Shown in pieces: positions 4,896-61,802 of a stretch of 64,000 nt of DNA (position 1 is its first letter; every line of letters starts with the position of its first letter). The notes beneath the pieces were generated by a model. It was not told the origin of the DNA, did no database searches, and worked only from the letters and a program-made list of their open reading frames with translations. The stretch is from contig JALDZX010000047.1 of assembly GCA_022813865.1 (NCBI GenBank), positions 62,001 to 126,000 of the forward strand. The letters are read 5' to 3'. Position numbers and translations under genes: made by a program. The stretch comes from Xylographa opegraphella (taxonomy: Eukaryota).

Positions 4896-6322
4896 TCACG
4901 GCACCTTGAACAGCTCCGGCTTCATATTAACCTTACAGAGTTTAGCCAGACAGCCTCCCAACTGCCCCAAGCCACCGACGCCCTCGAGAATCCTCATATG
5001 GCAGAACCCGATTTCTCTGATGAACTCCAGCCTCGAATGCTCGCTCACGCCGGGGATGCTCTTCGTCACCCGAAACATCGTGCTGATGATATCGTGACTG
5101 CTGTATCCCAGTCCCCACAGCTCCTGCAATATCTCCAGAGCGGCCTCCACTTTGGTCTCCCAGCACGCTTTGATCATCGCTTGTACCTTGATCGGATGAG
5201 GCGAATCCACCACCTTGAACACGTTGTCCCCGCTCACGAAGCCGAAGCCGGCGAATGTGGATTGCAGGTTGTTGATGGCCTGCCGCATGTCCCCCTCGGC
5301 GGAGAACACTAGGGCGGCTAAGCCGTCGTCGGAATGTTGAACATGTTCCGCGGCGCAGATGGAGAGGAGACGGGAGAGGAGTTGCGCATCTGTCAGTCGA
5401 GCGTAGCGCAGAATCGCGCAGCGGGATTGGAGAGGTTCGATGATTTTGTTGGATTGATTGCAGGCGAAAGCGAAGCGGGTGGTGGAGGAGTGGATTTCCA
5501 TGGTACGGCGAAGAGCTTGTTGGGCGCCAGAGGTCATGCTGGACGATGTTAGGCTGAGACTTGGATGTATGGCTAAAATCGGTGGGGAGAGAGCAGGCGG
5601 AAGGGAAGTCGAAGTGTATTTGAAAGGGTAATACCTATCTGCTTCGTCCAGAATAACGAGTTTGTGCCGCCCAGGAGGTAAAGTAACCTTCTTTTGCGCG
5701 AATCCTTTTATTCGATTCCGCACAACGTCAATTCCTATAGCAATTTGATCAGCGCTTAGATAGGCATGGATTCTGCTTCTGTAAATCCCACTCATGTTGC
5801 CCATCGGATATGTAATGACCAATTGAGACGTTGCCGAGCGATACAATTGCGTGAAACAATCTTCCAGGATATCTGCTCACCTCTCTCGTCACTGGCATTC
5901 AATTCCAGCACAGCTTCCTTATACGCTGAGCCAAGCATCTGTCTAGCCAAGCATAATATACTCGTTGTCTTCCCAATCCCTGGCATGCCAGAGATGATCA
6001 CATGGGGCATATTTCCATCCTTGGCAATTATCTTCAGGCGCTCGATCGTTTCCGTATTACCAACGACATCGTCGAGGTAGACCGGGCGGTATTTCTCCAC
6101 CCTGCATTTATTAGTATGATTCTGTGGCAAGAGCTAGCATGCTCGAAAATATAGAAAAATCTGTTAGAGAATGGCATAATGAACAAGATGTATTGGGGGT
6201 ACAGGGTTGCATAAAAGTTGGGGACAGCCATACCAGGGAAGTTCATAAATCGTGCCAGCGCCATTGGTATTGGCTTTGATTCCATTCCCAGCGGCAGAAG
6301 AGGAAGATTCGCCTTGAGCCAT
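4896..6322 (-). CDS. RFC4: Replication factor C small subunit (yeast Rfc4 type)
   Basis: [26 protein letters not shown] (Walker A), [21 protein letters not shown]. Exons about 6322-6234, 6101-5881, 5734-5635 and 5538-4896, with GT-AG introns. Confidence 0.95.
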
Positions 6323-8236: not shown

Positions 8237-8872
8237 TTAGCACTGCCCTCCTCCAGTACTTACTGCGTTGTGAACCGCCTCCATAACGCCCGCACATGCC
8301 TTCTTCGTCATATCCGCCGTGATGGAATTGGTGATAGCAATGGCAGCTGCACCTCCAGCGCCCCCGCCTGCGCTCACCGCGCCCATACCTTCCGGGTTCA
8401 CACCGGGGTTGAGCTCCAAAGTCCTCCTGCATGTGTCGAATTTGGATTTGTCGACTCCAAGCGGAGCGACGATGTCGTTGTACGCACACGGCTTGCCGTC
8501 CGCTCCCTTCTTATCTTTGCAGAACTTACACGCTAGTGAGTTGTTACTCACGGACGCGCCGCCTCTCCCTTTAGATTTCGCGCCTCCTCCGCCTCCGCCT
8601 CTCGCTGTCCTCGCTTCAATGATGTAGGGAGAAAGACTTTTGGAGCGTCGTAGAGGGCGAGCGTCTTCGTAACTGTTGATATCGCGCGCAAATGCTCGCC
8701 GGTGCGAAATAACTTCCCGCATCAGTAACATCCGGTCTTCTATGGCACGTGCGGCGAGGCCGTCCGACTCAGCGTTGATGGCGCGCTGAGCATGCTGTAG
8801 CTCGGCAAAGCTGTAGGCAAGAGAATTGGCGACTGCGAGGACGAGAACGAGAGTTGTTTGAATATATAGCAT
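8237..8872 (-). CDS. Small secreted protein with Arg-punctuated propeptide and 6-Cys C-terminal domain
   Basis: Single-exon 211-aa ORF; hydrophobic signal peptide; RR/AR/EAR sites; Gly linker; six Cys in the C-terminal half. Confidence 0.75.
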   Translation of the reverse strand: MLYIQTTLVLVLAVANSLAYSFAELQHAQRAINAESDGLAARAIEDRMLLMREVISHRRAFARDINSYEDARPLRRSKSLSPYIIEARTARGGGGGGAKSKGRGGASVSNNSLACKFCKDKKGADGKPCAYNDIVAPLGVDKSKFDTCRRTLELNPGVNPEGMGAVSAGGGAGGAAAIAITNSITADMTKKACAGVMEAVHNAVSTGGGQC

Positions 8873-10707
8873 AGTGCAAACTGGAGCGATGCAGATAGTG
8901 TTGGGTACGAGTTTGGGAGAAAGTATAAAGCGAAAAATATAGATACCACAAACTCAGTGTACGATAAAACATGCAGCTGAACATGCGGTGAAAGTTGGAA
9001 ACTGCTGTGCATAGCTGGCTGCTATCAGTGCTTCATATATATTGCTGAACCCGCACAACGATGTCATCCAGCTGAGAAGTGTCGATTGTTGCAAGCAAGC
9101 TGAAAGCAGGGCGAGATTTGAGTTGGACAGTCAATTGCACTTACGATAGTCAGCCCAACGAGAGCTGAAGACCTGTTATGGTGAATCCTCACTCAGAAAG
9201 AATTTCGCCGACTGTGCCATGTTGTTTTGCGAGAGTAGATTGAATCGAGGCACAAAGGTTGGGATGAAAATTTTGCCTGTGATTCGTCTCCGGAATTCAA
9301 GCCGATAGCTGGGGAAGTAGAGTAGGAAGAAAAGACACCAGCGTGTTCAAGGCGTACATCTCGCTTCTTTTGTCAAGTAATCTTGATGGTACAAATGTTG
9401 GTGGCACGGTGAGTAGCTTGAGCAAAGACTGCAACCTAATGAAGAGGTTTATGGGTTAGGGAGGATCCCAAAGGTAGACCAACACCCAACGTTGATCCAG
9501 CTCACCGCTCTACAGTACAGTCTGCGGCCGGATGGCACGCTGAAAGCACCGAGCTACCTGCTACGGCCGCCTCTTCGGTCTGCAGATATCTACAATGTTC
9601 ATGAGGGAGAGGTTGACGCTGAAACTCTCTCTTAGCCAGTATCCTCCAGGATCACGCTAATTCGCACACAGAGGTGAAGAGGCATGTTCGTCGCTGCACG
9701 TCTCCTGTTCTGAGAACTACAAGAGTGTATTCGCGGAGCTGGCTCTGATGCTGTTGCTCGCTAAATGCCCACTGTACTTCAATTCTATCAACATAAGGTG
9801 TATTTGGAAGTTCTGCCACTCGGCTTCACGTACTAAGTTCTGGTTCAGGCTTTGCTGACGTATTATTGCTAAGGCTTCCACTTATAATCCAAAAGAATTA
9901 GCACGGAACTCACCGACCATACTACTTCAGAAGCTTCGTGACCTATTACAATTCTTGTTAATATGTAGCAATATGCAAAAGCCCATCGGAGCCGTGAGTG
10001 TACGCTCCTCTGCCTCCGTGCCTCATGTCACCAAACCCCCGTGCACAATTGCGTCCTCTTTATGCCCTTTTCACGCGTAACACTCAATAAGGCAGGGTTC
10101 TCGAGGAAAAGCAACCAAGATGTGACTATCGAGACGGTTGTCGCGTATTATCCTGAAGGCCCCTGCGAAGCTAGAAAAAAGCCACGTGAAGATACTCCAC
10201 TGATGCGCAACAACGTCTATTTTCCGGACATACTGACAACGCGTTGTGTCGGGACGCTGCAAGTACGATGATTGGGACTGGATGAGGACCGGAGCAATGC
10301 CCACCAGATGTCAAAAGCGTTTTCGTGACGGTGTCTCAAATTTAGGTGCACGGGGCTGCGCGAATGAACATTTTCCTGATTACTGAATGCCACCTTGCAC
10401 CTATGTGATGTGTTCACAATATAACCCAGTTAATTAATCCTGTCGGTATTACTGTCAGCCATATTCCCGCTTGGTATTGCGTGTCTTGGATTCAGAAAGA
10501 CCCTCAAGACGATGAACTACCGCTTTTTGTTTCATAAGCTGGCTTACATTGAGAATCGTTGAGACACCCTTGACTTCTGTGATTGCACCGTCCAAGTCAC
10601 GCTCTGCCTCGAGCATTTTCTTCATATAGTTGAGCAATATATCCTGTGTTTCTGCCTGCCTACCTATATCAGTCCACAACATCGCCGACTCAGCGTTTCT
10701 TTCGCAT

Positions 10708-11616
10708 ATGGCTATGAAGCTCCTACCATGTCTTTGCTTCTTGTTTCTAAGCATCTCAGCTTCCCCTTCTGCACTGAGGGTCGGAAATGCTTCCTATGAC
10801 CATGAGCAGCAACATTCGTTTCCGTTGAGAGTACGCATGCCACCAAGCGAAACAGATGCAGCATACCACGAGTACCTGGCTAGGGGACGGCTACTGTGGC
10901 AGAAATTATCGAGGGAGCTCATTACAGATTCTCCTGACGCGCCCATGGATTCCGAGCGGATATTCGAGACATGGGAACTCAACTCTACGCCGTTCCGTCC
11001 TCCACCAGCCAAACTGATCGGACCGCTACGAAGCCTTCATTTGCCGTTCGGTAATGATTATACGAGGGTTAAGGCAAGAACTCCCAAAGCGATGCCGTAC
11101 ACCACCATTACAAACTTCCAAAGCCTCTACAACGTTGAGAACGGAGTCATCATCACAGAAGAGATGTTCAGAAAGGAAGAAGGTATAAACGCTGTCAGAG
11201 ACCAGGCCTTGCTCGGCAAACAACACTGGTCGCAAGTCACAGTCGAATGCTGGAGGCGACTATGCCGTGCCGTAGCGTCACTCCCAGGTATTACTATTGC
11301 TCCGGCATCTGAGTTATTCACCAACCTCCGCTACATTTTCATGGTGATGATAACATCCGACAAGACCGAAGCCGTCATCAACGAGAGGCTGATGTTACAC
11401 CAACCAAGCTACAATGGACCCCCAACGACATTCCTGCCCAATAATATCGCGTTTTATGTTCTGCTGGGATCTCCGAACGGGCAGGGTGTCGCATACATGC
11501 TTGCGCAGAACAAGAACGCCTTCAAACGCAAGACCATCAAAAGCGTCACTCTGCAGAGCATCACACCCGCAGACTATCCAGGCATATGGTGGCACCTGTG
11601 GTGGGAGATCGGATGA
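10708..11616 (+). CDS. Uncharacterised secreted fungal protein (LLGSPNGxGVAYML family)
   Basis: Uninterrupted ORF with signal peptide MAMKLLPCLCFLFLSISA. The C-terminal FYVLLGSPNGQGVAYMLAQNK...KTIKSV resembles a motif I recall from fungal hypothetical proteins. Confidence 0.72.
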   Translation: MAMKLLPCLCFLFLSISASPSALRVGNASYDHEQQHSFPLRVRMPPSETDAAYHEYLARGRLLWQKLSRELITDSPDAPMDSERIFETWELNSTPFRPPPAKLIGPLRSLHLPFGNDYTRVKARTPKAMPYTTITNFQSLYNVENGVIITEEMFRKEEGINAVRDQALLGKQHWSQVTVECWRRLCRAVASLPGITIAPASELFTNLRYIFMVMITSDKTEAVINERLMLHQPSYNGPPTTFLPNNIAFYVLLGSPNGQGVAYMLAQNKNAFKRKTIKSVTLQSITPADYPGIWWHLWWEIG

Positions 11617-13145
11617 AAATGTCCCACAAGAGTCACCTGGCGTTCCGGCGCTTCGCCCAAATCCTGGAAGCGTGGGGGACATCGTCAAATCCCTGCAGTC
11701 CCACGAAGTCCCTATGCAAACCCAAAGTTTCACTTGTTCTCAAATCCTTGCGCGCCGGTTTCCTATCCGATATATCAACTTTCTCGGACGTATACCATTT
11801 CTTCCCTTTCACTGGCCCCCTAGAAATCGTTCCTGCACGGGTCAAAGTCTAGGTACCGTCCGCTCATGAGATAAAAACTCTTCTAGGGTGGAACAACACT
11901 GCTTCAAGTAAGGGCCATATGTGCCAATTGATAAGTTATCAATTCGTAAGAATACTTATTGGTCAAGGCAGGCCAGAGCGCTTCGCAAGGAATGATCTTA
12001 ACACCCAGTGGACTTTGAATCTTCTTGAGGCGAAGACGTTGCACATCGCAGATCGGCGTCGAGGCTGTTGTTTTCCCTTTATGTCGGCCCTACATTTCGG
12101 ATGACAGACTGGCAGCGACGGTGCCGCGTGTACGTGAATGGTACAGAGGAAATATGTATGCTGCAAGAAGAAACGCGAGATGGAAACTTCTGAATCTTTT
12201 TTCCACAAAGACATAAGCAATTAGTCAGATCGGGAATGAGTCGTCCCAAGTGGAGCCCATTTCGTGATTTTTCATTTAAAAGAGAATGTAGCCAACCCTG
12301 TACCAAAAGTAGTCTACAGATTATAGATATAAGTCCAGCAGCGTACCGCAATCACAGATCCTCTGCGGGTTTGCATTGTTCATATGTAAAAGTCACGAAC
12401 GCCCCTATTGCGGCTGTTGGCGCAGATGGAAAAAAAGACCTTTCGACGTTAGATACATTGCCGGCACAATTTCCGTGAATACGAAAAATCCTACTACACG
12501 TCGGTCCACTTGGGAGGCGATCCTTGATGGGTTTGCCATCGGTTGCAATTGGAAAACATCAAAACGTGAGCGCGAGAAAAACAAGTGAAGAAAATGAATC
12601 ATGTGAAGCGCGGTCCTTGTGCAGAATTATAATACATCCACGGCCGCTATGCCAGCCTCACTTAGCGAGGGGACAGTACATACAGATCGACGAACATACA
12701 GCAAATATACAGCAAACATATTCTCGATGGCCACCTCCCATCTTCACCCTTCACACACCATTCCGCCCCGCCAAGCCCGGCGCAGCCCTACAAAATACCC
12801 GCTTCACGCCCTTCCTTCGTCCGGACCGCAGTGATCCTTCGCGCCCCCATCAATCGCCTCTGGCTCACGATTGCACTCAGCGCAGCAAGAGGCACGTCCG
12901 CAGAGCATGCGGCGGGCGCTCATGCACGCTGCGGATGGGGTGCGGAGCACGGGCTGAGGGCTTGGGGGGAGCTCACATAAGAGGACTGGAGCTGCGCTGC
13001 TCTTGAGATCGACCGTTCTGCGCTTCACGGGATCGCGAAACGGAATCTATCTTCGAAGCGGCGTTTGGGGTCTTTTTGGGGAACCTTGGTTTTCTGCTGG
13101 CGCTTCTTCGAGTGCACATCCCCCCCTTGCCCGTCGCACTCCACG

Positions 13146-13847
13146 ATGCCTGCACCAGCCAGCGGCCAGGCCACCTTCCACAACCTCCACCTCACCGGCA
13201 CGGTCGCCCTCTACACGCCCCTCCGCTTCCAGAGCACGGTGTTTACCTTCCTCGGCATCGTCCTCCTCCTCGTCGGCAGGGCCAAGCTCGACTGGTACAA
13301 CAGCACCGGCAGCGGCATTATCACCTTCCCTCTGATCTTCCTCTCCCTCTCACTCTTCACCCACATCGTTGCCGCTGCGCACTACACGTTCACGGAACTC
13401 GCCGGCGTCGAATGGGCGCCGTCGGATCTGCGGATGCGCCCCGACTCGCTGTGGCGTATAGCGGAGCGGCTGGAGGATGTCAAGCGGCCGGACGCGCGGG
13501 TGCTCAGAGTGGCGTGTGGAGGAGCGGGACTGGGAATGGCGTCCGGGGCGCTGCTGGTGGCGCGCTTTCCGATGTGCAATAAGTTGATGATCGCAGGGGT
13601 CGTGATGACGTTCTTGACGGCGTGAGTGCCTGAGTGCGTTGTGGGACAGGCACGGAAGGGGCTTGCTGATACCCAGGATAGGGCGATACATATCCTGCTT
13701 GCTGTCTTGCCCGAGAATGAGTATCGCTGGACGCTGACGCTCGGGGATGAAGACCGGGAGAGGCAACTCAGGGGTGGGCATGTGCGGTTGGTGGACGAAG
13801 AACCCGATGAAGAGTTCATCGGTTTGAGGTCGATGTCGATGGTATAG
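13146..13847 (+). CDS. Hypothetical multi-pass membrane protein
   Basis: ATG at 13146; strong codon bias; about 4 hydrophobic segments. A GTGAGT donor at 13622 can splice to a TAG near 13681 and continue AIHILLAVLPENEYRW to the stop at 13847. Confidence 0.55.
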
Positions 13848-14843: not shown

Positions 14844-16055
14844 TCAATCAGCGGTCATATCCAGGACCTCGATCTTGACGACTTTCCGACGCTTATATTC
14901 CCGCTCATTCTCTTTGGCGTCTCGCTCACGCTTCACTGTCGTCCCGGTACTTGCGTGGCTCGTGGGTATGATGGGTTCGGCCCTGATAGCTAAGCTGCGC
15001 TCAAGGAGTGCAATCGAGCCTGGCAATAGATCAGTCAGAACATTGGTGGACAACTGAATTGGGTCAATATACTCGGAGTTCCTTTATCTCTTCAGCCGGG
15101 TCAGGGGTAGCTACAACAGGTGGTGTAGCCGGTGAAGCATTTGAGAGCCGGCTAGTGCTGACGACGTTTCTGATCAATGGTTGTGGTGATGGTGTTCTGG
15201 GAATGTAACCCAGCATCTGAAGTGCCTCTGATGTCGGTCAACCACTGCAACTTTGCCATGGGGCAGATCCCACCTACTTCGAGACCTGTAAAGAATGTGA
15301 AACTTAATGGGCAGTCCTGGTTGTCCAGGAAGGGATGCGAAACACCAGGGGTTCTCAAGAGGGGCTGCACAACTAGGTCCTGCAACAGACCTACGAGGAG
15401 TATAAGTACGATAGCAGATCGATTGAATATAGGACATACTTGATGGTGTTTGATATGGCTTTGCCCTTAAGCAGCGTCTCGGATACCTGGTCAAGTCCCC
15501 CTGACTGCTGCGTATAGTTTTCCGGACAAGTAAAGACCCGTCTATCTCTCTTGACACGTTTCACAGTAACTTCTATCGACCCCAGCTTCTTGACCGTTTC
15601 CGCAAGTAAAGGTGTAGTAGATGTAGAATCTTCTGTTGACCCCAGTCGTCAGCATCTCATAAGTTTGTAACGGAAGGCCGCCACCCACGCAAGTGTAAGT
15701 CCTGGAAGATGAACTCGGGATGTTTCCACTGTTGGCTCTGTATGTCGTATTGCGGGTACTCTCCGAAGTCAAATGAGTGATTCCGGTGGCAGAGGAAAAA
15801 GTATTCCTGTTGACAGAAGACAACCCGGGGCTCTCCACCGTCATATGCTAGGTGGACCTCAACCCCGTCACCGTCACACATCAGAAAACGATCGGTCAAG
15901 GTTACTTTGACCGAGAATCTAACGCCAGTCACTGCTTCCACATAAGCATGCCTCTCGCATTGGATCGCGGAGTTGTCCGGTGCTGGATCTGTATATATCG
16001 GCAGACATTTCCCTTGCGAAATAATCTCAACCCGAACACCTTTCCGATGCACCAT
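14844..16055 (-). CDS. DUF7918-like protein, tandem copy A (probable 1-nt frameshift in last exon)
   Basis: YVEAVTGVRFSV, LGSIEVTVKR, SETLLKGKAISNTI, ILYRSR, LQMLGYIPRTPSP; 5 exons. The last exon reads ARLHSLSAA* after the phase-0 splice, while the homologous IALLE...VKRER...IEVLDMTAD lies in a shifted frame. Confidence 0.75.
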
Positions 16056-16737
16056 TCTCGTAGTGCCAGTCTGACAAATGGCGGGTATATGTATGAGCTT
16101 CTTTCTGGTTTTATGTGCGGGTACGTGGGTACGCAATAGGGGTACAAGTTGCAATCGACTTCGCAGACAGCAAAAAAGCCAAGTACACCAGCTATTGCAC
16201 AAAAGACAATTTTTTCAACTGTAGAATTGATTGCTGTTCGATCGAGCGTAGGTAGGAAGCTCTTCGCGTCCTGTAGAAGCTGTGCGATTCGTGAGGCTTT
16301 GCGTGGAGGTAATGTTGCGCGATGCAATTGTGACGAAACTGAGACACGAGTGCCGGTTTCACGCTATCACGTGAATCTTCTAACCCTTGATTACCTAGCG
16401 TAGCTACTGCATGTGCGTCTCTCCTCTGATAGGCACTCCGTACCACCTTGATATGTTGAGTGATACTTCCGATCATAGATTATTCGTTCTCTGCGCGAGC
16501 TTTCCAGCGCGAAGGAATTTCGGCAGCTTTTGAGATCTCCCACTGGTTGAATATATACAAAATTGCCGAACCCATCGCTGATTATTTACCAACCGGAAAC
16601 ACCTGCTATATACAAAATAATATGGTGTGGCGGGTGGTAGGAGTTCCGAAAGTGCCGGTCGATACACTGTGAGGCTTTTGCTCCCCGCAGCAAGGACTAC
16701 ACCAATGCAAGCGGTAGCCAATTCTGAGGGGATGAGT

Positions 16738-17958
16738 TCAGTCCGCCGCAAGATCCAAGACCTCTATAGCTCCTTCAAACTTCCGTCGCTTCTGCGCAGA
16801 ATCGTCGTCGATGTGAAGGTACTCGCGCTCGCGCTTGACGTGCCCGAGAGCACTTTGGCATAATATTGTATCCACAGGCTTCGAGTTGACGTTGAGATCA
16901 GGTTCGAGAAGAGCGAGGGGAGCCTGACGAGGTTAGCGAAATTTTCTAGAAGTGCAGAGACATGGAACGTACGCGATCATCCTTGATTTCTGGAGATGGG
17001 CTTGGAGAGATGTCGGAGAGGGTTGATTCCGCAGCGCCACTAGGGTGTACTCCAGAAGCGCTTGAAACGTCGATCCGTTTCACAAGTCGTATTGGCTCAA
17101 CTGACGGGATGCAGTCAAGCATCTGAAGAATCTCTATAGTCGACTCTTAGTATGTACTACACATGATTGACATTCCACTGACTTTTGGATCGGTAAAATA
17201 TCTCGATCTCAACCGGAACATGTGCAGAATCAGTTATCTCTTCATATTCGTACTCGCCAGCTCGTGGCGGCATGACATGATGTCCGGCAACGGTTCTGAA
17301 GAAAGACGTCAATTTGTGAAAATGGAAACACAAGTACCATGAAGACACACTTGATTGTATTCGAGAGAGCCCTCCCCTTTAATGCTTTCTCCGAAACTTC
17401 CCCTATGCTTTTCATTGCTCTGGGCTTTGAAAATCCCGAACGGTTACGCAGCATTTTCACCACATAGACCGCTCTGATCATGATCGACCCTAATTGGTCG
17501 ATCAATGCTGAAGAGGCTCCAGTATCGATGGATTCCTCTACCAAATAGTTAGATAGTGAAAAGACACCGACAGTAGATATACGTACTGATTTTCAGGTCG
17601 CCAAATTGGAAATAGCCCATTCTCCACTGTCTAGTTTCGGGGTCGCGCTGCCTTGAACCATTCACCATTTGGGAAGGATGCTTGCATTCTTCATACCATG
17701 TTGAATTAGAGCAGTTCCTCATGCCAGCCCATCTTCCGTCCAGCCAATATTCGATATTAAGACATCATCGCAGTCACCCCACGAGAAGTCCTCATCTAAG
17801 GTAGTTCGGATTACAAACTGTGCATCTGCAATGGCCTCAACGTAGAATCTCGGTGCCGTTGAGTTGCCCAACCCTTCTTCAGGGTCGTTGAATACTGGCA
17901 AACGTTGCCCCTTGACATATAAATCAGCAGTAAAGCCGTGTGACCGTGCCCTGTTCAT
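16738..17958 (-). pseudogene. DUF7918-like protein, tandem copy B (frameshift in exon 1)
   Basis: FYVEAIADAQFVI...DDV is followed by 5 nt (TTAAT, 17760-17756), then IEYWLDG...QWRMGYFQFGDLKI in another frame. Later exons carry SEKALKGRALSNTI, IFYRSK, LQMLDCIP and VKRERE...IEVLDLAAD*. Confidence 0.7.
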
Positions 17959-18840
17959 GTTGTGACCCAGACCACTTCCCACCGACCCTCTTCGTGTTTG
18001 CTTGTCTTTGCTAAACCCAAGAAAAACTGGCAGTATTAACAAAGTACTTGAGTTTGCATTGACTTTGCTTTATGGATCTTTTGTGGAAGATTGGAGGATT
18101 AGAAGTTGATATAGTCCAAATAATACCAACAAGGTAACCATCCTCTGTCAACTATCAACCGGATGCTACAAAGTGTCACCATCCAATGCGTTTGGAAGTC
18201 AAAAGCTCGGACCTCCGTCTGTGCTGGTACCTGCATTAGCGCAACGCGTCCCAAAAAATTAGTAGCGTGCCCCAGAAATTGCTGACACGTCCCACACAGC
18301 TGCAATATGCGCTAATAATGCTGCTAAAAACTCGATAAGCCGAATTATACGCTCAGCACTGCGAAAGCTCAAAGAGAAGCGGAGATGGAAACATATGATA
18401 CCATAAGAATAGTAACATTGGAGGACTTTTTCAGCACCCAGTATCCCATTCTGAACCAGCAAAAGCTCTGTCTGATGAGCATTATATTCCCAATATATTT
18501 CCAAGGGTAGATACATGACCGACTTGCATATCCCGAATGTATGTAGTGAATGCGCATCCCCACAAAAAACTGTTGCAGCATATGCCTCGACATATTGGAC
18601 ATGCACATAACTGATTGTGCCCAAAATGAATATCATCCGAGACACCGCCTGCGCCCATGTAAAAGACCTGGTACAACCTGCTTCTGATAGGAAGCCGAAG
18701 CAAATGAATCGCTCTGAAATGTAAAACGTGGACAAAGTACCAGCGGTGAGAACCAGAACCTGACCGAGTCCAGGCCTCCGAATACAGCATCGAACCAGAC
18801 GCAGAGCCATCCGGATATCAAAGATGCGCAGCCAACTACG

Positions 18841-20052
18841 TCAGTCATCTGTCAAATCCACTACCTCAATAGGACCTGATTTTCTTGGTCGCTTGCGTTC
18901 CCATACTATCTCAATGTCGGTTCCTTCACGCTTCACTCTTCTGGCAGGAGTAGACGAGTCTCCGCATGGATGTAGGGGTTCTGACTTGATATTCCTGTTC
19001 TGTTCCAATATGGCAAGTCGGGCCTATAGAATCTGTCAACTATACAAATTCACAGCGGAGAACGACAATAAGATCTCACGCGGAGGTTGCGAATCTCCTG
19101 GTCCGAATCAGTGGTGACTGCAGGTGTACCCCTAGCGGAAGAGAAACCTTGCTCGGACCGAGTCGTCGGCTCCAAGGAGGTCCCAGGTGATGGCGTTCTC
19201 GGGATACAGCCAAGCATTTGCAAGACATCTATAGTACATGTCAGTTCATGCGTCAGTCCTACGACTGGATGGCTAACGTCTGGATCGGTACAGGATATCA
19301 ATGCAGATATGTCGGCCATCAGGACCTGTTAGTGGTGCGTGGTCTTGTTTCTTGATGTTGCTCTCGATGAGATCACCGACGACCATACTGAAGTCTCGTT
19401 AATTGCGCAGGGTTTGGGGGGTGTTGAAAATACAATGTACCCAACAGTGTTGGTCACAGCTTTCCCCTTCAGTGCTTTCTCCGGCATGGAGCTCACTCGT
19501 TCACCAATCTCATCCTTTCTGAAGTTAGTCCAGGATTTCGAGGGGAGCAGTTTCGCGCGCTGGATGTCGACTCGAATCGTGCCAAGTTGGTCGATGTGGG
19601 GTGGCATTACATTCACTTCATCCGACTCTTCTGCGATAATTATCAGAGGATCCGAGCTTCTAGAAAACAGGAGGCTCACGCAACTCCAGGTGACCGAAGA
19701 TGAATTCCGCCTTTCTGAACAGCTTCTTCTCGGGATCATATCGACGGACATAGTACAAGACTTTAGATGATGATTTTCCGTTGCGCAGCCATTGCTCCTG
19801 GCGGAACATCCAGTAGTACTTCTTCCCGCCATCGAAACCGAGTCCAAGATTCGCACCTGTCCCAGAGAGCCATTCGAAGTCTTCGGTCAGGGTGATTCGA
19901 ATGTAGAATTTCGCATTCGTAATAGCTTCGATGTAGAAGCATCGCTTCTCGGTCAAGTCAAGTACATCATGCACTATGTCCGGATTCTGGTAGAATGGTA
20001 ATGTACGGCCGTCTGAAATCACTTCCAGCTTCACACCCTGCACCAACGCCAT
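18841..20052 (-). CDS. DUF7918-like protein, tandem copy C (intact)
   Basis: FYIEAITNAKFYI, LGTIRVDIQR, PEKALKGKAVTNTV, ILYRSR, LQMLGCIPRTPSP, ARLAILE, VKRE...RKRPRK...IEVVDLTDD*. Four GT-AG introns, all phases compatible. Confidence 0.85.
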
Positions 20053-21444: not shown

Positions 21445-23690
21445 CTAGGCGCTTCTGCGGCTTCCGACGACAGCGAGGATGATCTGAGAGTCGGTTAGCA
21501 ACGATATTTTGTGTCGTGTGAGAACAGTGGACGTACGATGGCAACGATTATGAGGATCCCGATGACGGACATGAAGCGGTTCATGATCCGCCAGTATCTG
21601 GCGTTCTCATAACGTGCTTGGTCGAACGGCCCCAGCGCCTTCTCGATGTCGTGCGCGATATTAGGCCCATTAGGCGAGGCGGGTGGTGTAGCTTGCGGGG
21701 GACGTGGAAGTGGGAGGAAAGCAGCGATCATCCAGGCTAATGATTGTTAGATAGCGGTTAGAAGGGAGTCACGAGCAGACCAACCAGGTGCGAAGATGAA
21801 ACCCAAAACGAAGAGCCAGATCTGCACATTGCGACGCGTCAACGCTGCTCCCTCGGCGGATTCGTCCAGACTTGGGGCTATGAATATTGTTCTCCGGTCA
21901 GCGGCGCTTCGACGATCGTGCCATAGATGAGGCGACCATGATGGGCTGATTTTCCTCCGTGGTGAACCGTGGATTTCGACCACCACCTCGGGATTCGGAA
22001 TCGACGTGATGCCCATGGAGTCGCGGTTCGAGCTTGCGGTGTTGATCTCCCGAGGTCGAGTGCGAGATCTGAAAATGCCGTAAGGGAAGGAATTTTGCGA
22101 TTCGTGAGTCGGAGGCCGACTACTCTCCGTTGGTTCTGACGCTGTGACCGGCCGGAGGTTTCGGCCCTCTTGCGCGTAGTAAATCCTTTGATTAGAGTCA
22201 GTGTTTGCGTTATCATACATGTTTAGGGCCCGCTGCCGGTTCCCGTGACGGTGGAAGTACCTCGCCCAAGCTGGAATGCTGTCTCTGAGAAAACTTCCCC
22301 TCGATCCTGCACCAGTCCGTGTCATACTATAGTGACTGTTCCGGCTTTGTGTTCTTTCTGCGGAAGGTAAATTGAAGAAACTTGATGTTTGACCTCCAAG
22401 GACGGGTGATGGCAGATCTGAAATATTGTCTCCTTCTTCGTTCACGACTCGAATTGTCGAGTTGGTCACGTCCCTAGACCTTGTGAATGCTACCAGAGGT
22501 GGCACAGGAGGGTAATAGGAGGAGATTGAGGATCCGTCGACCGCCAAGGATGAAGTGACACTGGTTACTCGCTGCTGACGGGCTTCATCACTACCGCTAC
22601 TCCTCTCGTCTGTTCCTTCTGAATGTATAGTCGACAGGTGTGAGTTTCGTTGTTCCTCCGCAGAACGTTCACTCATGCCAACAGGACGCCTTGGTATCTT
22701 GTAGCTGGATCCCGCGTAAGACCTAGACGCCGTAGGGGCGCGGATCACTGGGTACTGAAGAGCGGGTGGGCTGTGGCCGATCACAGTACTCGACGGTGCA
22801 TAGGTGGGAGACTCATAGACACGCTGTGGCGGGGTGGGAAAGTCGATCGAGCTCGGCGAGAGTGGCGACACTGGTGACGTTGGGGACGTCGACGACACCG
22901 GGGATAGTGAAACCCGCTTGGCATCTGGCTCGGGCTCTGGCTCTAGGAGCCGCGGTGGTGTGGGCAGAGATCGTGTGGATCTAGATGAACCGGGTCTGCT
23001 CTGTCCAGGAAATAAAGCATAAGATCCTCGAGGAGGCGGGCCCCGGACCGATCTCCTCACAACAGTGTCACTAGACCCCGCCGAGTCAAGCGACAATTGC
23101 GAAGCCACCGATGCTATCGCTCGGAGACTGGCTCGATGGTCGTTGCTGGGGGTATTCGGGATTGACGTGAGGCTTCGATCCCTGCCATCTCTGCTCCCAT
23201 ACACGCTTGGGAGCTGCACAATTTCATCTGAGGCTCGTTCGTCATGCACTATGTCTCCATCCATGTCCAGGCGATCCACGCCTACGTTGGATGGAGACTC
23301 AAAGGTTTGTGGCGGTTCCTTCTCGAAATGCGACGAAGGCGATTCAGTAGCGGTCTGCGGTAGTTCCGAATCGGATCCATTATGTGCAGAACTTTGTCGC
23401 CGGCCGTGGTCCGGCCGACTTATAGGATCCGATGTTCTGGGAGCCTGAGGTGTTGCGGCAGTTGGCTGACTCGCGGATGAAACACTAACATCATGCTCAA
23501 ACAGCTTCCGGCCCCGAGGCGAGAGAATCTGGGACTCGTGTGTCGGGAACGGAGTACTCGCATAGATTTTGGCGTCTGAGTCTCCGACGACTCGCAAGCT
23601 CGGTGCCGTGACCTCGTTCGCATGAGAGTCACTCCTCTCATGGAGGGCTCGACGTTTGGGCGATCGTCTTAGGCGAGGAGGAGAGCTCAT
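21445..23690 (-). CDS. Conserved fungal serine-rich protein with C-terminal transmembrane segments
   Basis: RRALHERS N-terminus; IPAWAR/IYY; WSPHLWHDRR; VQIWLFVLGFIFAP-AWMIAAFLPLP; YENARYWRIMNRFMSVIG. Introns at 22186..22260, about 21740-21785 and about 21484-21536. Confidence 0.85.
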
Positions 23691-24621
23691 CCTTTGCGCA
23701 ATGTTCCTTGCATAACGTCGTGGCGTTCATGCAGAGGGTTAATTTCGGGACTGGATATCGCCGAGGCCTGATCAAAGGATCATGCTGATGCGATACCGAG
23801 ATGTCGCGGAACGGGTGGTTTATTGCTAATGTTCGTGAGAAAGCCTGTTGAGGAGTGTTGGTAGAATGAGTGTGAGCTGTCCTGAGGACTGCAAAAACGA
23901 GAAAAGTGCGATTACAAAAGATTGTAAAAGAATGTGCCGAAAGAGAAAATGAGATTGGAAAGGAGTGTGAATGATTGCGAGGGAAAGAAGGTGAGAATTA
24001 AGTAAATGCGATAAACGATTGTCACGAATAATGCGCCGCTGCCACGGTGGTGGGATGTATGCTTAAGGGGGCGGTCGGCGGTGAAGTTAGTTAGCTGCCA
24101 ACCCCCTGCCCGGAGATTTCGACTTTTCGTGGGAGGCGGGCTGCTGATTCGACGTGGCTGCAGATACTCCCTAATACATCAGGTAAAGTGCTTGTTGGGA
24201 GAGAGCCAACCTGCTGGACTTGTTCCTGCGATGCGGTAGAGACTCGTTTTGTACTCCGTAGAAAAAGAATGAGGCACAAAATATGACAGCTGCTCGTCCA
24301 TATCGATGAGGGGCATTTCTCTTATCGACACGGTCCCGTTATCCAGACGCGTCCGTATCCATCGGACATTCGCGTGCAAATATTAATAGATTGGAAATGA
24401 AATGGCCTGGTGGGAGCCGTGCTTCGCTGTCGTGAGCCCCGCCTTAGCGGCAGCAACGTTGAGGCCAATGACCAGAGCCGCCACAACTCAATCTCCTACA
24501 AGGGGGGCTTTTTGGTCTGTGTCTCCTGTCTCCTTGACTGTTCAACCATCTTTGTCTGGCTGACTGGCTCTCAATGCGGACGCTTCACTTTTATCATTCG
24601 CGCCTAGACTGACGGCTGGCC

Positions 24622-47586: not shown

Positions 47587-48396
47587 AGGGAAAGGGGCAT
47601 GGGTCTGGGTGAATGGGGGAGGGGCAGCTTATGTATATACGAAAACACATTCTTCTCGGCTGATTGAAAGAAGGCCCAAAAACGGAGTTGGTTGAATATT
47701 CATGTTTGCTACCCTACCCTCGAGGCCGTCAATCCAAGAGCTTCGTCGAAGTGGATGCCAGTGCACAAGTTCCTCGCTTGGCAACTTTCGAAACCGAGAC
47801 GGTGCATGCAGACGGCTTTGGGATCTCGGCGATCAGCCCTCAACAATCGAAATAACTTGTCCTCTCCCGTCGGAACCGTCACCAAGGATGCATAGCAAAG
47901 ACCTCAGGCCTCATAATAATGGCAAAGGCCGTGGAACGAGGCAAGCCGGACCATGGCGCACGGATACAACTTTTCACGCTAAGGGTTTACCAGCAACGCG
48001 TACAGCAGACTGAGACTAACAAATGCATATGTTTCCCCCCGCGGTTTCGACTCTGAGAACAATGCCTTAATCTCTCGGGCCTCCTCCTCGCTATACACCA
48101 TATCTGCAATGCGAGCCTGCAACAGTGTGGAGAAGCGCTTGCGGCTGTACGGGGTGCCCCGGTTGTGGCAAAGTTTCATGCTGACCTGGTGCTCATACCA
48201 CGCATATTCTTCACACACAGCCGCGGTCGTATGGCGCGAATATCTGGATTTTCCTGAATCATCATCATTCTCATGCGGTGGCCAATCTTCATATAGCCAA
48301 AGAGCCCCAACAGCTTCTCTTTGCCCATAGATCTCCCATTCCGCTCGCTCCTCTCCAAGACCCAGCACTGCTGTGCACTTCTCGAACCGCACAAGC

Positions 48397-48957
48397 ATGC
48401 CCCCCTCGAACCACAGAGGCTTCTTCTCCCTCCTCCTCCTCCTCCTCCTCCTCCTCCTCTCCTTCCTCCTCTACACAACCACCGCCTCCCTCACCCTCAC
48501 CCCCTCCTCCCCCCCTCCCGCCCCCCCCTCCCTCTCCCCCCGCGCCACCACCTCGACGCCCATCTCCACCTGCACAGCCGGCTACATCGGCTGGACGTTC
48601 CAGCAATCTTTCTGCCAGCGCGCGTACCCGCGCAGCGTGCGCGCCTGGCGCATGCAGTGCCACCGGCCCGGCGCGCGCTCCATGCTCGAGGGCCCCGTGC
48701 CCTGGTGGCAGATGGGCTCCGTCACCGGCGAGTGTCTGCCGTCGCAGCTGTGCGTCGACGGGCCCTACACCCCGCCCAACGAGGCCATGATGCGTCAGCA
48801 CTGGTGGTATAAGCAGTATGGGACGGCGTATTGTGTCGAGATCGAGTATTTGGTGGGGTTGGGGACGGCGGGGTTGGAGGTTATGGCGGCGCAGGTGGGG
48901 AAGGTGGGGGAGGGGGGGATATATCCGCCCGGGAAGGGGGAGGGGATTTTTGCGTAG
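48397..48957 (+). CDS. Small secreted cysteine-containing protein
   Basis: Poly-Leu signal peptide; pro-region ending LSPR; 6 Cys including GECLPSQLCVDG and TAYCV; strong codon bias. Confidence 0.7.
   Translation: MPPSNHRGFFSLLLLLLLLLLSFLLYTTTASLTLTPSSPPPAPPSLSPRATTSTPISTCTAGYIGWTFQQSFCQRAYPRSVRAWRMQCHRPGARSMLEGPVPWWQMGSVTGECLPSQLCVDGPYTPPNEAMMRQHWWYKQYGTAYCVEIEYLVGLGTAGLEVMAAQVGKVGEGGIYPPGKGEGIFA
48430..48459 (+). repeat. (CTC)10 microsatellite encoding the Leu10 core of the signal peptide
   Basis: Ten perfect CTC units in frame. Confidence 0.9.
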
Positions 48958-49118: not shown

Positions 49119-50559
49119 ATGAGGTTCAAGTCCTCGATCCGGAACGTCGGCACCTTCACCAGTAGGTTTCTTCTTGAAGCAACACCGTCCCGTCGCTGCT
49201 CACTCACTCACCCTCCCTCCTTCGCGCCGCAGAGCTTACCGCGTCCCTGAACTCCCTCGGCAAGGTGGCATGGATCCGGCTCGACAACGAGCAGATGCGC
49301 TGCACCGTCATCCCCGAGCAGGGCTCGCAGGTATGGGCGTACGTTAGGAACCCCCCCGGTACATCAAAAGCGTATTTGCATTGGACTGATGCCTCGTCAG
49401 GGTTTTGTCCGTTGTACGTGACCCGACTTCTTCATTCCTTACGAGCGCGCTCGTTCCACCCCACCCCCCCTCCCCCCCCGGCTCACATCCTCCCCCCTTC
49501 CCCCCCGATCTAGGAAACCATCTTCGACGACTACGCCATCCAATCCGCCGCCGCCAACAACACGATCGACCTCGAAGTGCCCCTCGCCTCACTCCAGCGC
49601 GCCCTGCGCTCCGCCCAAGCCGCGTCCGCGGCCTCCATCCGCCTCACCAAGAAAGACGGCCGGCCCCTCCTCTCCCTCACCATCCTCACCCACGGCCCCA
49701 CCACCTCCAGCCGCAGCGGCGGCTCCGGTCTCGACAACCACCCCACCCCACCAAACGCCCTCCCCCTCCCCTCCCACGACACCACCATCACGCAAGACAT
49801 CCCCATCCGCGTCCTCTCCGCCGCCCAAGTCGCCGGCATCCACGAGCCCCGCTGCCGCGACCCGGACGTGCACATCCTGCTCCCGCCGCTGCACCAACTG
49901 AAATCCATCTCGGAGCGCTTCACGCGCATCGGGCTCTCCTCGTGCGCGGGGCGCAGCAGCAGCAGCAGCAGCGCTGCGCGGCTGGAGATCGCGGCCACGA
50001 TGCACGGCGCGCTGCGCGTCGGTCTGCGCACGGAGGCGCTGCGTATCCAGAGCCGCTGGGAGGGGCTCGCGAACCCGGAGTTGGACGCGGCGAATGTGGA
50101 AGGCGGGGAGGAGGGCGTGAGGGCGCATCCGAGTACAAGGATGAAGGCGCTGAGCGGGGAAGAGGCGTGGGCAGTGGTGAGGGTTGAGGGGAGGGATTGG
50201 GGAAGGGTGTTGGGCGTGGGGAGGTTGGGCGGGAGGGTTATTGCTTGTGAGTACCCGGCGCGTGGTGTGGTGTGGTGTGGTTCTGATGGAGGCCGGGTGC
50301 GAGTGGCTGGGTTGGGGAATGCGACTGCTGACGTCTTGCCTGCGTCTGCGTCTGCGCTGGGGTTTAGGTTTCTGCCACGACCATGCGCTCATCCTCTACG
50401 TCTACCTGCCGAACGACGATGCGGAGGACTCGGTCTTGACGGTGAGTTCTGTTTCTTCCTCGCCGCTCGGGGGGTTGGGGTCGGGCGTTCATATTGCTGA
50501 TATCGTGCGCGTGCGCGTGTGTGGGGGGGCAGTATTATATCAAGTCGTACAGTGCTTGA
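49119..50559 (+). CDS. HUS1: 9-1-1 checkpoint clamp subunit Hus1
   Basis: MRFKSSI..., SQVWAVLSV/ETIFDDY.IQSA, LQRALRSA, IRLTKK, ITQDIPIRVL, DPDVHILLPPL, CHDHALILYVY, YYIKSYSA*. Six exons including a 13-nt micro-exon at 49401-49413. Confidence 0.92.
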
Positions 50560-59888: not shown

Positions 59889-61802
59889 ATGAGTGTATGT
59901 AATTAATCTAGTCTTTGTATCCATCCGCTGATTGTGTGTTGTGTTAGAATAAGTACCGTGGGGGATGCTGTTGATATTGACAGTGGAGACGATGAATTGA
60001 AGCTTGCTATTGCGTTGTCGATGCAGGATCAAGCTGCAGTAGCACCGCCAACCAACGGAAATCTGACGAGAGACATTGTTGATATCATGGAGGACCTTAA
60101 GGGTGCATCCGACCAGAAACACGACACAATCGCCTCACACGTTGTGCCTACACATTATGGTATTCCTGGCCTCAATCGAAAAGCAATGGAAGAGGAGAGG
60201 CTGGCTCGCAAGAGAAAAGCACCCATCTCGCCGCCTCTGCGTGCTAAGAATCGGAAGACTACCGATGGCAGTGCACTGCAAACCCGTGATCGTCCGAGCT
60301 CTACTGCAACAGTAACAGCTACTAGTACCGAAGCAGGACCGCACGAACAGTCAGAGAACAGGAAAACTACATTGCAATTTCCTGCCGCTACGGTGAAGAA
60401 GACTTGGGCATTTGGCTTTCCACGCACCGGTGAAGACATTAAGTTAGAAGAGGTTTTGCAGCGTGAGGACTTGACCTTGGCAGTCCTGAGCTCATTTCAA
60501 TGGGAGGTCGAGTGGGTTCTTCGAAAGGTTGATACAGCGACCACGAAACTCATCATGGTTATGCAAGCCAAGGATGAAGCTACCAAGCAACAGTATGCTC
60601 GAGAAACCGCAGATATGACGAATCTGAGGCTTTGCTTCCCCTCTATGGAAGGACAGGTCAACTGTATGCACTCCAAGCTTATGCTTCTCGCTCATCCTAA
60701 TTACCTTCGCATTGTTGTGTCCACGGCAAATCTTGTGCCTTATGACTGGGGCGAAGGCGGTGTGATGGAAAACACACTGTTCCTCATCGATCTTCCACGG
60801 CATCTCAAGGGCTGCAGGACTTCTCCAGACGATCTCACATTCTTTGGTAAAGAGCTGATCTACTTCTGCCAAGCCATGGGACTTCAAACCGACGTTGTCA
60901 ACAGTATGTACGACTTCGATTTCTCTGCCACAAAGGATGTCGCCTTTGTCCACACTATAGGCGGTACTCATAGAGGAGAATCCGAGCCGTGGCGCAGGAC
61001 TGGATATTGCGGTTTAGGAAGAGCGGTACAGCACTTAGGCTTGGGTACAGCACAAGCTCTTCGGATTGACTTCATTGCATCTTCGGTAGGTGCTGTGAAC
61101 ATTGATTTCCTGATAATGCTTTACCTTGCCGCTCAAGGCAATGACGGCCTAAGAGAATACCAATGGCGGACCACTGCAGCTACGAAAGCTGCGCGTAAGC
61201 GAGATCACTCATGGCGCGATGAACTCATCGAGAATATCAAAAACAATTTCCGGCTTTACTTTCCATCTCGAGATACCGTCGTGCTGTCTCGAGGAGGCAT
61301 TGCGTGTGGAGGCCCAATATGTTTGCAACGCAAATGGTACAAGTCCTCAACGATCCTGCAACACATATTGCGTGACTGCAAGAGCACGAGGAAGGGTCTA
61401 CTGATGCATAACAAGGTGAGAGTGAACCAAGCTAATATATCTAATATGAACGAATGATCTAAATTCCGACAGCTTTTATATGTTCGACCGCAACCGCATT
61501 GCGGACGAGGAGCATCGTCTGGCAACTGTTCCGCTTGGGCATATATCGGTTCTGCAAATTGCTCGGAAAGTGCTTGGGGCAAACTCGTGCAAGACAAGGA
61601 TACGAAGGCGCCGAAACTGAATTGCCGCAACTGGGAGTGCGGCGTGATCATGCCAGCACGAGCTCTTGAGCAGGCCCCACGGAGCGATCATGGGCCTCCG
61701 ATGGACAATCTAAGTGTTTTCGCAGGCAGAGTCCCGATACCGATACAGTATCCTGGAGAAGAAATGAAGGACCGCACACCATGGTACTATGCAGAACAAT
61801 GA
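59889..61802 (+). CDS. TDP1: Tyrosyl-DNA phosphodiesterase 1 family protein with N-terminal UIM (start uncertain)
   Basis: CMHSKLMLL...STANL..YDW and LMHNK/LLYV...GSANCSESAWG...NWECGV (two HxK motifs); UIM-like DDELKLAIALSMQD; intron 61416..61472. Confidence 0.88.

What the first reader, a model, noticed from the sequence alone, without database searches (positions are those of the whole stretch)
14844..20052. Tandem triplet of highly diverged DUF7918-like genes with shared exon structure and a SUMO-site/NLS/SIM-like tail
Seen: three same-strand paralogues, each with 5 exons and introns at equivalent positions. They share YxEA..F, LG.I, E..LKG.A..NT, YRS, LQML..IP and a short helical A.lAlLE segment. 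Each ends in VKRE, a basic KRRK/RKRPRK stretch and IEV(L/V)D(L/M)..D*. Established: psi-K-x-E is the SUMO acceptor consensus, V/I-x-D-L-T is a SUMO-interacting motif, and basic clusters act as NLS. Inference: an old, fast-evolving cluster of nuclear SUMO-linked proteins of unknown function, possibly in chromatin or genome defence. This is the best candidate here for an undescribed system. The DUF7918 name is from memory.
Basis: partly seen in the sequence, partly recalled or inferred. Interest (0 to 1): 0.7.

Follow-up and report, generated by a model that had tools for sequence, protein, structure and literature searches.

The report
Decaying fungal DUF7918 triplet, SUMO tail
Three neighbouring copies of an unstudied fungal gene family sit here, only one clearly intact, and the family's conserved tail strongly suggests nuclear proteins that are both modified by and bind the small protein tag SUMO.

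Summary
The three minus-strand paralogues are real: five exons each, intron phases 1/2/1/0, 30-35% identity, all Pfam DUF7918 (PF25534). B is one base short in exon 1 (stop at codon 80). A is one base short at the start of exon 5, so its tail is out of frame unless a non-ancestral intron is used. A fourth copy elsewhere has an in-frame stop. The tail is not special to this cluster but family-wide in Pezizomycotina: [VI]KxE 97 sites against 5 shuffled, [VI]RxE none, terminal VIDLT-type motif in 47 of 67 tails. The core is an Ig-like beta-sandwich without a close solved relative. Best reading: an ordinary birth-and-death cluster of a known DUF whose intact member is a nuclear, SUMO-modified, SUMO-binding adaptor; the SUMO link is inferred from motifs only, and chromatin or genome defence has no support. 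No held paper names the family. The scan had not noted this fungal family before, only bacterial lipoproteins likened to DUF7918.

The parts
18841..20052 (-). Copy C, intact DUF7918 gene, 5 exons (20052-19680, 19630-19441, 19387-19278, 19228-19080, 19023-18841), 334 aa
   Evidence: Spliced translation identical to P0001; PF25534 129.4 bits, residues 6-236, profile 1-228/228; intact orthologues P0002, P0003, P0156
16738..17958 (-). Copy B, DUF7918 gene with a -1 frameshift in exon 1; exons 17958-17587, 17537-17351, 17295-17183, 17133-16973, 16923-16738; probable pseudogene
   Evidence: 1019 nt, stop at codon 80; both sides of the break are DUF7918; public model P0035 starts at an internal ATG, 17668; helix interrupted by prolines
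14844..16055 (-). Copy A, DUF7918 gene with a complete domain but a -1 frameshift at the start of exon 5; exons 16055-15689, 15632-15440, 15390-15278, 15227-15073, 15019-14844
   Evidence: 1004 nt, stop at codon 286; orthologues P0020 and P0026 have the tail in frame after an intact ELRARLALLE helix; public model P0158 uses another intron
17720..17767 (-). Interval that holds the one-base frame break of copy B
   Evidence: All single-base read-throughs that open the frame fall at CDS nt 192-239
14991..15094 (-). Interval (end of exon 4 to start of exon 5) that holds the one-base frame break of copy A; homology places it just after the acceptor at 15020
   Evidence: Open read-throughs at CDS nt 807-857; exon 4 end matches orthologue P0020 in frame
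15054..15114 (-). Alternative 61-nt intron (GTAGCT..TTGAC..CAG) that would restore the tail of A while removing the first half of the helix
   Evidence: Model with it equals P0158; no RNA evidence either way
19194..20037 (-). DUF7918 domain of C: Ig/FN3-like beta-sandwich with closing helix, no conserved Cys or His
18997..19106 (-). Amphipathic helix 266-283 (EIRNLRARLAILE), split by intron 4; likely coiled-coil segment (inference)
   Evidence: AlphaFold helix H266-283; E269, L273, R276 conserved in 64-79% of 67 rows
18979..18990 (-). C: first psiKxE site (IKSE, K287)
   Evidence: K conserved in 71% of 67 rows; A has IRAE here, B lacks it
18925..18936 (-). C: second psiKxE site (VKRE, K305)
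   Evidence: K305/R306/E307 in 83-86% of 67 rows
18883..18897 (-). C: basic cluster RKRPR(K), monopartite-NLS-like
   Evidence: K(K/R)x(K/R)-type motif in last 40 aa of 51 of 67 tails against 7.3 shuffled
18844..18870 (-). C: terminal SIM-b-like motif IEVVDLTDD
   Evidence: same core as PIAS VIDLT and RNF4 VDLT (PMC3901395 passages); only C matched the terminal pattern in G000
16741..16839 (-). B tail: VKRE (16839-16828), KRRK (16791-16780), IEVLDLAAD (16767-16741)
   Evidence: SIM core departs from the family's [VI]DL[TS]
14847..14936 (-). A tail: VKRE (14936-14925), KRRK (14894-14883), IEVLDMTAD (14873-14847); out of frame with the ancestral intron

Best explanation
The region is an old tandem cluster of three DUF7918 genes in a lichen-forming fungus (Xylographa opegraphella or a very close relative) that is evolving by birth and death: C is the working copy, B is a pseudogene, and A has lost or damaged its tail. 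The working protein is a nuclear adaptor: an Ig-like beta-sandwich without catalytic residues binds an unknown partner, a short amphipathic helix probably oligomerises it, and a disordered tail is imported by its basic cluster, SUMOylated by Ubc9 at one or two psiKxE lysines, and docks on SUMO through a terminal VIDLT-type motif. It would thus be both a client and a reader of SUMO and would join SUMO-SIM protein networks in the nucleus. Shown here: gene structure, frame breaks, family, fold class, conservation and specificity of the tail motifs, presence of SUMO and a Siz-type E3 in the genome. Inferred: SUMOylation, SUMO binding, nuclear location, oligomerisation, adaptor role.
For: Frames and breaks. 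No frameshift in 18 ORFs (23,916 nt) of 12 conserved genes of the window, against about 16 expected at the cluster's rate; 5 of 5 junctions tested, plus two in the Puf gene, are introns. Damage in other species' models of A and B: P0026 is a chimera of B exon 1 and A exons 2-5 with changes at near-invariant sites, P0020 starts at the equivalent of M59, P0162 ends at residue 92. C intact in four Xylographa species. Copy D on C195 has an in-frame TAA at codon 104. Tail: [VI]KxE 97 sites against 5.1 shuffled (max 12), [VI]RxE 0 against 8.4, psiKxD 1 against 6.6, psiKxE in 62 of 67 tails, SIM-b-like motif in the last 12 residues of 47 of 67 (shuffled 0.7), basic motif 51 of 67; in 28 rows found through the core alone: 32 sites against 1.9, 0 against 3.4, SIM-b 14 of 28. 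Fold: pLDDT 84, all-beta core, helix 266-283, unstructured tail; best structural matches are Ig/FN3-type sandwiches. SUMO gene on C157 and PINIT on C56. Consensus definitions: PMC11986368 and PMC3901395 (passages).
Against: No experiment on any family member was found; motif conservation shows selection on the motifs, not SUMO conjugation. 20 of 67 tails lack the terminal SIM-b motif and 5 lack psiKxE, and half of the core-only rows lack the strict SIM; some may be mis-modelled ends. The rows are related by descent, so shuffles measure conservation, not independent origins. The frame breaks rest on the assembly alone: no reads were available, the long-ORF comparison is biased towards unbroken genes, and the public models P0001/P0035/P0158 match the window letter for letter, so they are not independent. 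A still scores nearly as well as C against a family profile (248 against 272 bits) and is 78-81% identical to its orthologue, so it was under selection until recently and may still make a tail-bearing product through the alternative intron. The DNA pattern for [VIM][VIM]D[LF]T alone is common in the genome (189 against 138 for the control).
Confidence: 0.6

Rival explanations
1. All three copies are functional and form a co-evolved set of nuclear SUMO-linked proteins; the two missing bases are assembly errors or are bypassed (A by the alternative intron, B by an internal start).
For: Sequence downstream of both breaks is well conserved; A has a usable alternative intron with a branch site that restores the tail; B has in-frame ATGs after the break; adjacent locus tags in X. 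pallens show the cluster is shared.
Against: No frameshift in 23.9 kb of conserved ORFs in the same window; an internally started B lacks the first strands of the sandwich; A has K-to-R at the first SUMO site where its orthologues have IKAE and where the family shows no [VI]RxE; A/B models of other species look broken too.
Confidence: 0.12
2. The family is nuclear and its tail motifs matter, but mainly as a SUMO-dependent turnover or import signal (SUMOylation, then removal by an Slx5/Slx8-type ligase), while the job is done by the beta-sandwich as a nucleic-acid- or lipid-binding module rather than a protein adaptor.
For: The conserved core residues include basic and aromatic positions (R149, K176, K179, Y221, R222, R235); weak fold matches include RhoGDI and other ligand-binding sandwiches (Z 5.9 and below); STUbL recognition of SUMOylated proteins is established (PMC11986368 passages).
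Against: A terminal SIM beside two acceptor sites fits a reader better than a mere substrate; all structural matches are in the range of a common arrangement.
Confidence: 0.18
3. The family acts in genome defence or chromatin silencing (for example against transposons or mycoviruses), which would explain fast divergence and copy turnover.
For: Orthologues of C are only 47-61% identical within one genus; 3 of 4 same-type copies in G000 are broken; SUMO-SIM hubs serve intrinsic defence in animals (general knowledge; PMC4907222 seen as a listing only).
Against: No nuclease, helicase, PIWI, chromo or other defence domain; neighbours are housekeeping genes; no RIP signature in the cluster; dN/dS could not be computed. 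Fast change and turnover also follow from weak constraint.
Confidence: 0.1

Closest known systems
Pfam DUF7918 (PF25534), fungal domain of unknown function
   Same: Whole domain in A and C, both halves in B, all above the curated cut-off; nearest ESM Atlas clusters are DUF7918, one with 4188 members; relatives in Lecanoro-, Eurotio-, Dothideo-, Sordario-, Leotio-, Pezizo- and Geoglossomycetes (class assignment of the named genera from my own knowledge).
   Different: The Pfam model ends at residue 236 and does not cover the helix and the SUMO-type tail; here two of three copies are frameshifted.
SIM type b of PIAS1/PIAS2 (VIDLT) and RNF4 (VDLT)
   Same: Same hydrophobic core with acidic flanks in a disordered segment (PMC3901395, PMC9071424 passages); family consensus E-[VT]-[IV]-D-L-T-D-D-stop.
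   Different: A single motif at the very C-terminus, about 25 residues after a psiKxE site; no RING or SP-RING, so not a ligase of either kind.
SUMO-modified SIM-bearing nuclear scaffolds and clients such as PML, Daxx, Sp100 (recalled, not from a call)
   Same: Combination of acceptor lysines, NLS, a SIM and a possible oligomerising helix; Daxx also ends in a SIM (recalled).
   Different: No sequence or domain relation found; folded part is an Ig-like sandwich; fungal only in the hits seen.
Ig/FN3-like beta-sandwiches (RhoGDI, FN3 repeats, AGS-C domain)
   Same: Core aligns over 80-118 residues at Z 4.7-5.9, rmsd 2.4-5.5.
   Different: No match stands out; Foldseek none at E<=0.001; no sequence relative among solved chains except an unrelated fused gene model.

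Membership tests
DUF7918 (PF25534) | Score above the curated cut-off (27 bits) | tested here: met
   C 129.4, A 142, B piece 88.7 bits; 6 of 6 exon pieces 36.5-56.3 bits
DUF7918 (PF25534) | Whole 228-position domain in one reading frame | tested here: met
   Met for C and A (1-228/228); B covers 1-61 and 91-226 only in separate frames, so B fails this
SUMO substrate (psiKxE consensus) | psiKxE in a disordered segment, lysine not replaceable by arginine | tested here: met
   Two sites in C, tail unstructured in the model; 97 [VI]KxE against 0 [VI]RxE in 67 tails
SUMO substrate (psiKxE consensus) | Covalent SUMO conjugate in cells | not testable with these tools
   Needs experiment; published fungal SUMO target lists could not be mapped to this family
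SIM type b | [VI]-[VI]-D-L-T core with acidic flanks | tested here: met
   C has EVVDLTDD; A (VLDMT) and B (VLDLA) depart from it; strict core in 28 of 67, looser in 47 of 67 tails
SIM type b | Non-covalent binding to the SUMO groove | not testable with these tools
   No experiment; no complex prediction with SUMO was made
STUbL (Slx5/Slx8, RNF4) or PIAS/Siz SUMO ligases | RING or SP-RING zinc-binding domain | tested here: not met
   Only PF25534 hits the proteins; no Cys or His conserved in 60% or more of 67 rows
Duc1/DUF1769 (PF08588) | Profile similarity to the Duc1 domain | tested here: not met
   Atlas lead at 0.76 only; family profile against the main exon of the genome's own Duc1 gene: probability 0.05%, a one-sequence comparison of limited reach
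Any solved fold family | A structural match that stands above the common Ig-like background | tested here: inconclusive
   Best Z 5.9 among 48,161 chains; Foldseek no match at E<=0.001
Pseudogene (copies A, B) | Disabling change confirmed by reads and absence of a functional transcript | tested here: inconclusive
   Breaks in the assembly, clean neighbours; no sequencing run was listed, so reads were not seen

The most novel reading that the evidence does not exclude
DUF7918 proteins are an unrecognised, Pezizomycotina-wide class of SUMO-hub scaffolds: oligomerised through the short helix, each chain shows two SUMO acceptor sites and a terminal SIM, so the proteins could polymerise through SUMO-SIM contacts into nuclear bodies (a fungal functional analogue of PML/Daxx bodies), with a fast-evolving Ig-like head choosing the cargo and with paralogue turnover like that of a defence family.
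Probability: 0.15. Interest if true: 0.7.

Novelty: new member of a known kind. Interest (0 to 1): 0.33.

Why it matters
The cluster itself is ordinary: catalogued genes of a catalogued domain, two of them broken. The useful result is family-level. DUF7918 has thousands of fungal members and no paper in the held library names it, yet its members carry, outside the Pfam model, a tail with two SUMO consensus sites, a basic cluster and a terminal SIM conserved at 25-35% core identity. That gives a large orphan family a cheap, specific first hypothesis (K-to-R and SIM mutants in Aspergillus or Neurospora orthologues). If the proteins scaffold SUMO-dependent nuclear bodies, this would be a new piece of fungal nuclear organisation.

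Tried and rejected
Related loci in JGI metagenomes with the alignment of four C orthologues: 262 pattern matches, none confirmed; scans with the 73-row alignment could not be run, so no DNA of other species, no synteny beyond locus tags and no dN/dS. Solved structures: Foldseek no match at E<=0.001; VIA-align best Z 5.9; absence of a match does not show a new fold. The one sequence hit in the PDB (7zm7 chain 9) is a 785-residue model named NDUFS5 that includes a DUF7918-like stretch; taken as a fused gene model, not as a function. Duc1 lead rejected. RIP as cause of decay rejected: TpA/ApT 0.57-0.78 in the genes, like the window (0.66), and almost no DNA similarity remains between copies. An intron to explain B's break was looked for among donors and branch-acceptor sites: none short enough to keep the conserved strands. 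Tree: only the quick search finished; A, B and C lie in one group of 11 rows with Trapelia and Schaereria proteins at SH-aLRT 87 (not firm), D lies in the other subfamily (99); monophyly of the triplet was not tested. Literature: 'DUF7918' 0 papers, 'PF25534' 0, four-term SUMO/fungus/SIM/DLT search 0; some searches gave listings with nothing on this family in titles or abstract starts. Supplementary SUMO target lists of Aspergillus or Magnaporthe were not read, since none of the 30 proteins looked up was from those models; they may bear on the SUMO claim. Earlier scan notes: none on this genome or sequence.
Full report
Observation. The window is fungal DNA with short spliceosomal introns. On the minus strand between 20052 and 14844 lie three homologous genes, called C (20052-18841), B (17958-16738) and A (16055-14844). 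Each has four GT..AG introns of 49-56 nt at equivalent codons, in phases 1, 2, 1, 0. The three proteins are 30-35% identical over nearly their full length, E 1e-40 to 1e-52, and hardly any DNA similarity is left between them. Six of six exon pieces tested score above the Pfam cut-off for DUF7918, PF25534; full models give 129 bits (C) and 142 bits (A) over the whole profile.

Only C gives an open frame: 1005 nt, 334 residues, identical to P0001, which NCBI names a hypothetical protein of Xylographa opegraphella. With introns at the equivalent positions, B is 1019 nt and stops at codon 80, and A is 1004 nt and stops at codon 286, before its tail. In each a single added base opens the whole frame; the break lies at 17767-17720 in B and at 15094-14991 in A. 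The public models reflect this: B is annotated from an internal ATG at 17668 (P0035, 242 aa, lacking profile positions 1-90), and A with a different fourth intron, 15114-15054, which restores the tail but removes the first half of a conserved helix (P0158). Orthologues of A in X. soralifera (P0020, 78%) and X. pallens (P0026) have the ancestral helix and tail in frame, so the break in A is recent. Which intron A uses cannot be told without RNA; both donors are off-consensus at +5.

Are the breaks real? No reads could be seen. Indirect evidence favours real decay. Eighteen ORFs of twelve conserved genes in the window (23,916 nt, among them 5,673 nt of Sec16) have no frameshift, against about 16 expected at the cluster's rate; three of five junctions resolved as introns by script and the other two, plus two in the Puf gene, by eye. 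This set is biased towards long frames, so the nominal probability is too low. A fourth copy of the same architecture on contig C195 has the same four intron phases and the same tail but an in-frame TAA at codon 104. Models from other species look damaged at A and B too: P0026 joins the start of B to exons 2-5 of A, skips a conserved strand and has changes at near-invariant sites; P0020 starts at the equivalent of residue 59; P0162 ends at residue 92. These are inferences from protein models without DNA. C is whole in four Xylographa species (P0001, P0002, P0003, P0156). A also has IRAE where its orthologues have IKAE, and B's helix is broken by prolines. Against this, A still scores 248 bits against 272 for C on a profile of 66 other family members. 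A fifth DUF7918 match on C176 is a longer, acidic subtype. Counts in G000 are lower bounds.

Age. Adjacent locus tags in X. pallens (004276, 004277) show the cluster is shared within the genus. In a quick tree of 74 cores, A, B and C fall in a group of 11 rows with Trapelia and Schaereria proteins (SH-aLRT 87, not firm), A next to Trapelia (91), and D in the other subfamily (99). The duplications are therefore old, perhaps older than the genus; this is not proven.

The tail is a family trait. A full HMMER search found 203 representatives at E<=0.001, of which 150 were listed. I aligned 73 of the 155 proteins then held, chosen as near full length. After dropping three redundant rows (P0002, P0006, P0026) and three with tails under 40 residues (P0036, P0116, P0138), 62 of 67 tails hold psiKxE, mostly twice; [VI]KxE occurs 97 times against 5.1 in shuffles (maximum 12), [VI]RxE never against 8.4, psiKxD once against 6.6. 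A motif [hydrophobic/T][VILF][DE]L[TS] lies in the last 12 residues of 47 of 67 (shuffles 0.7), with consensus E-[VT]-[IV]-D-L-T-D-D-stop, typically 25 residues after the last psiKxE; a K(K/R)x(K/R)-type cluster lies in the last 40 residues of 51 of 67 (shuffles 7.3). Because hits may have been found through the tail, I repeated this on 28 of 31 rows whose match ended at or before residue 271: [VI]KxE 32 against 1.9, [VI]RxE 0 against 3.4, SIM-like motif 14 of 28, basic cluster 22 of 28. An independent cut gave all three motifs in 37 of 52 proteins. The named members span lichen fungi, black yeasts, Dothideo-, Sordario-, Leotio-, Pezizo- and Geoglossomycetes (classes from my own knowledge), and the Atlas holds a 4188-member DUF7918 cluster. 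The strict preference for lysine over arginine in an otherwise arginine-rich tail is what a SUMO acceptor site predicts and what a mere basic or helical pattern does not. The psiKx[DE] consensus is given in PMC11986368 (passages); VIDLT as the SIM-b core of PIAS1 and VDLT in RNF4 in PMC3901395 (passages); the PIAS2 peptide VDVIDLT in PMC9071424 (passages). G000 encodes SUMO on C157 and a PINIT-domain protein on C56. The core motif alone is common in the genome (189 against 138), but the pattern with the stop codon matched only gene C (control 2).

Structure. AlphaFold2 on the 73-row alignment gives mean pLDDT 84, pTM 0.72: an all-beta core (1-222) closed by a short helix, a linker, a helix at 266-283 and an unstructured tail. 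Foldseek finds nothing at E<=0.001; VIA-align gives Ig/FN3-type sandwiches with best Z 5.9 (RhoGDI, rmsd 3.9 over 118 residues), within the background of a common arrangement. Conserved positions are hydrophobic, glycine, proline and the charged E175, K176, K179, R149, R222, R235; no Cys or His reaches 60%. An enzyme is therefore less likely than a binding module (inference). Oligomerisation could not be predicted.

How it most likely works. The intact protein is imported through the basic cluster, modified by Ubc9 at K287 and/or K305, and binds SUMO on partners or on its own kind through the terminal motif, while the sandwich binds an unknown partner and the helix may dimerise it: a SUMO-regulated nuclear adaptor. 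All functional steps are inferred from motifs. I put 0.6 on this reading together with decay of A and B. Rivals: three working copies (0.12); a SUMO-dependent turnover signal on a ligand-binding domain (0.18); a role in genome defence (0.10), for which there is only fast divergence (47-61% between orthologues of C) and copy turnover, with housekeeping neighbours and no defence domain and no RIP signature.

Comparison and novelty. A and C are members of DUF7918 by score and coverage; B is a broken member. They are not STUbLs or PIAS/Siz ligases (no RING-type domain), and the Duc1 lead failed. In motif make-up they resemble SIM-bearing SUMO substrates of animal nuclear bodies (recalled), without homology. 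The genes are already annotated as hypothetical proteins. Searches for DUF7918 and PF25534 found no paper in the held library (subscription papers are mostly missing), and the scan's earlier notes name DUF7918 only as the nearest family of an enterobacterial lipoprotein (not checked here). So the cluster is a new instance of a known kind and is not a three-part system; the family-wide SUMO signature seems unreported in what I could search and is the part worth following. Interest 0.33; the nuclear-body scaffold reading has probability about 0.15 and would deserve 0.7.

Noticed in passing
L013:4173-2967 (-), G000 contig C195: Fourth DUF7918 copy of the other subfamily, same four intron phases and tail (IKPE, IKRE, KKAR, IEVIDLVDD*), with an in-frame TAA at codon 104; intron 3 holds a short direct repeat of about 23 nt, three copies by eye.
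   Followed up: partly
L014:about 4300-2870 (-), G000 contig C176: Long, acidic DUF7918 subtype with large insertions and few introns; no terminal VDLT seen in the part read.
   Followed up: no
window 51103-54117 (-): 1004-codon open frame with many copies of a six-residue unit (ENISLP) and an assembly gap of Ns inside the repeat; the opposite strand reads as IFSGSE repeats.
   Followed up: no
window 59907-61457 (+): Tdp1 gene whose N-terminus has a SIM-like segment (AVDIDSGDD) followed by a UIM-like LAIALS stretch (motif names recalled). Tdp1, Hus1 (49514-50500) and an RFC small subunit (4896-5876) are DNA repair or replication genes in the window, none adjacent to the cluster.
   Followed up: no
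window 10630-11616 (+), 8237-8953 (-), 48331-48957 (+): Three ORFs that look like secreted proteins by their hydrophobic N-termini and have no Pfam match at E<=0.01.
   Followed up: no
window 12981-13625 (+) and 21747-23726 (-): The cluster's flanking genes, a small membrane protein and a long Ser/Pro-rich protein with C-terminal hydrophobic segments, have no Pfam match.
   Followed up: no
PDB 7zm7 chain 9 (not in the window): The 785-residue sequence deposited as complex I subunit NDUFS5 contains a DUF7918-like region (E 2.9e-6), probably a fused gene model; an Atlas cluster is named after it.
   Followed up: partly
L024 (G000:C157 about 61.7-62.1 kb, -); L020 (C198); L027 (C56): SUMO gene with one intron ending QEQIGGS*; a gene ending in a SUMO-like domain, probably Rad60/Esc2 (name recalled); a PINIT-domain gene.
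   Followed up: partly
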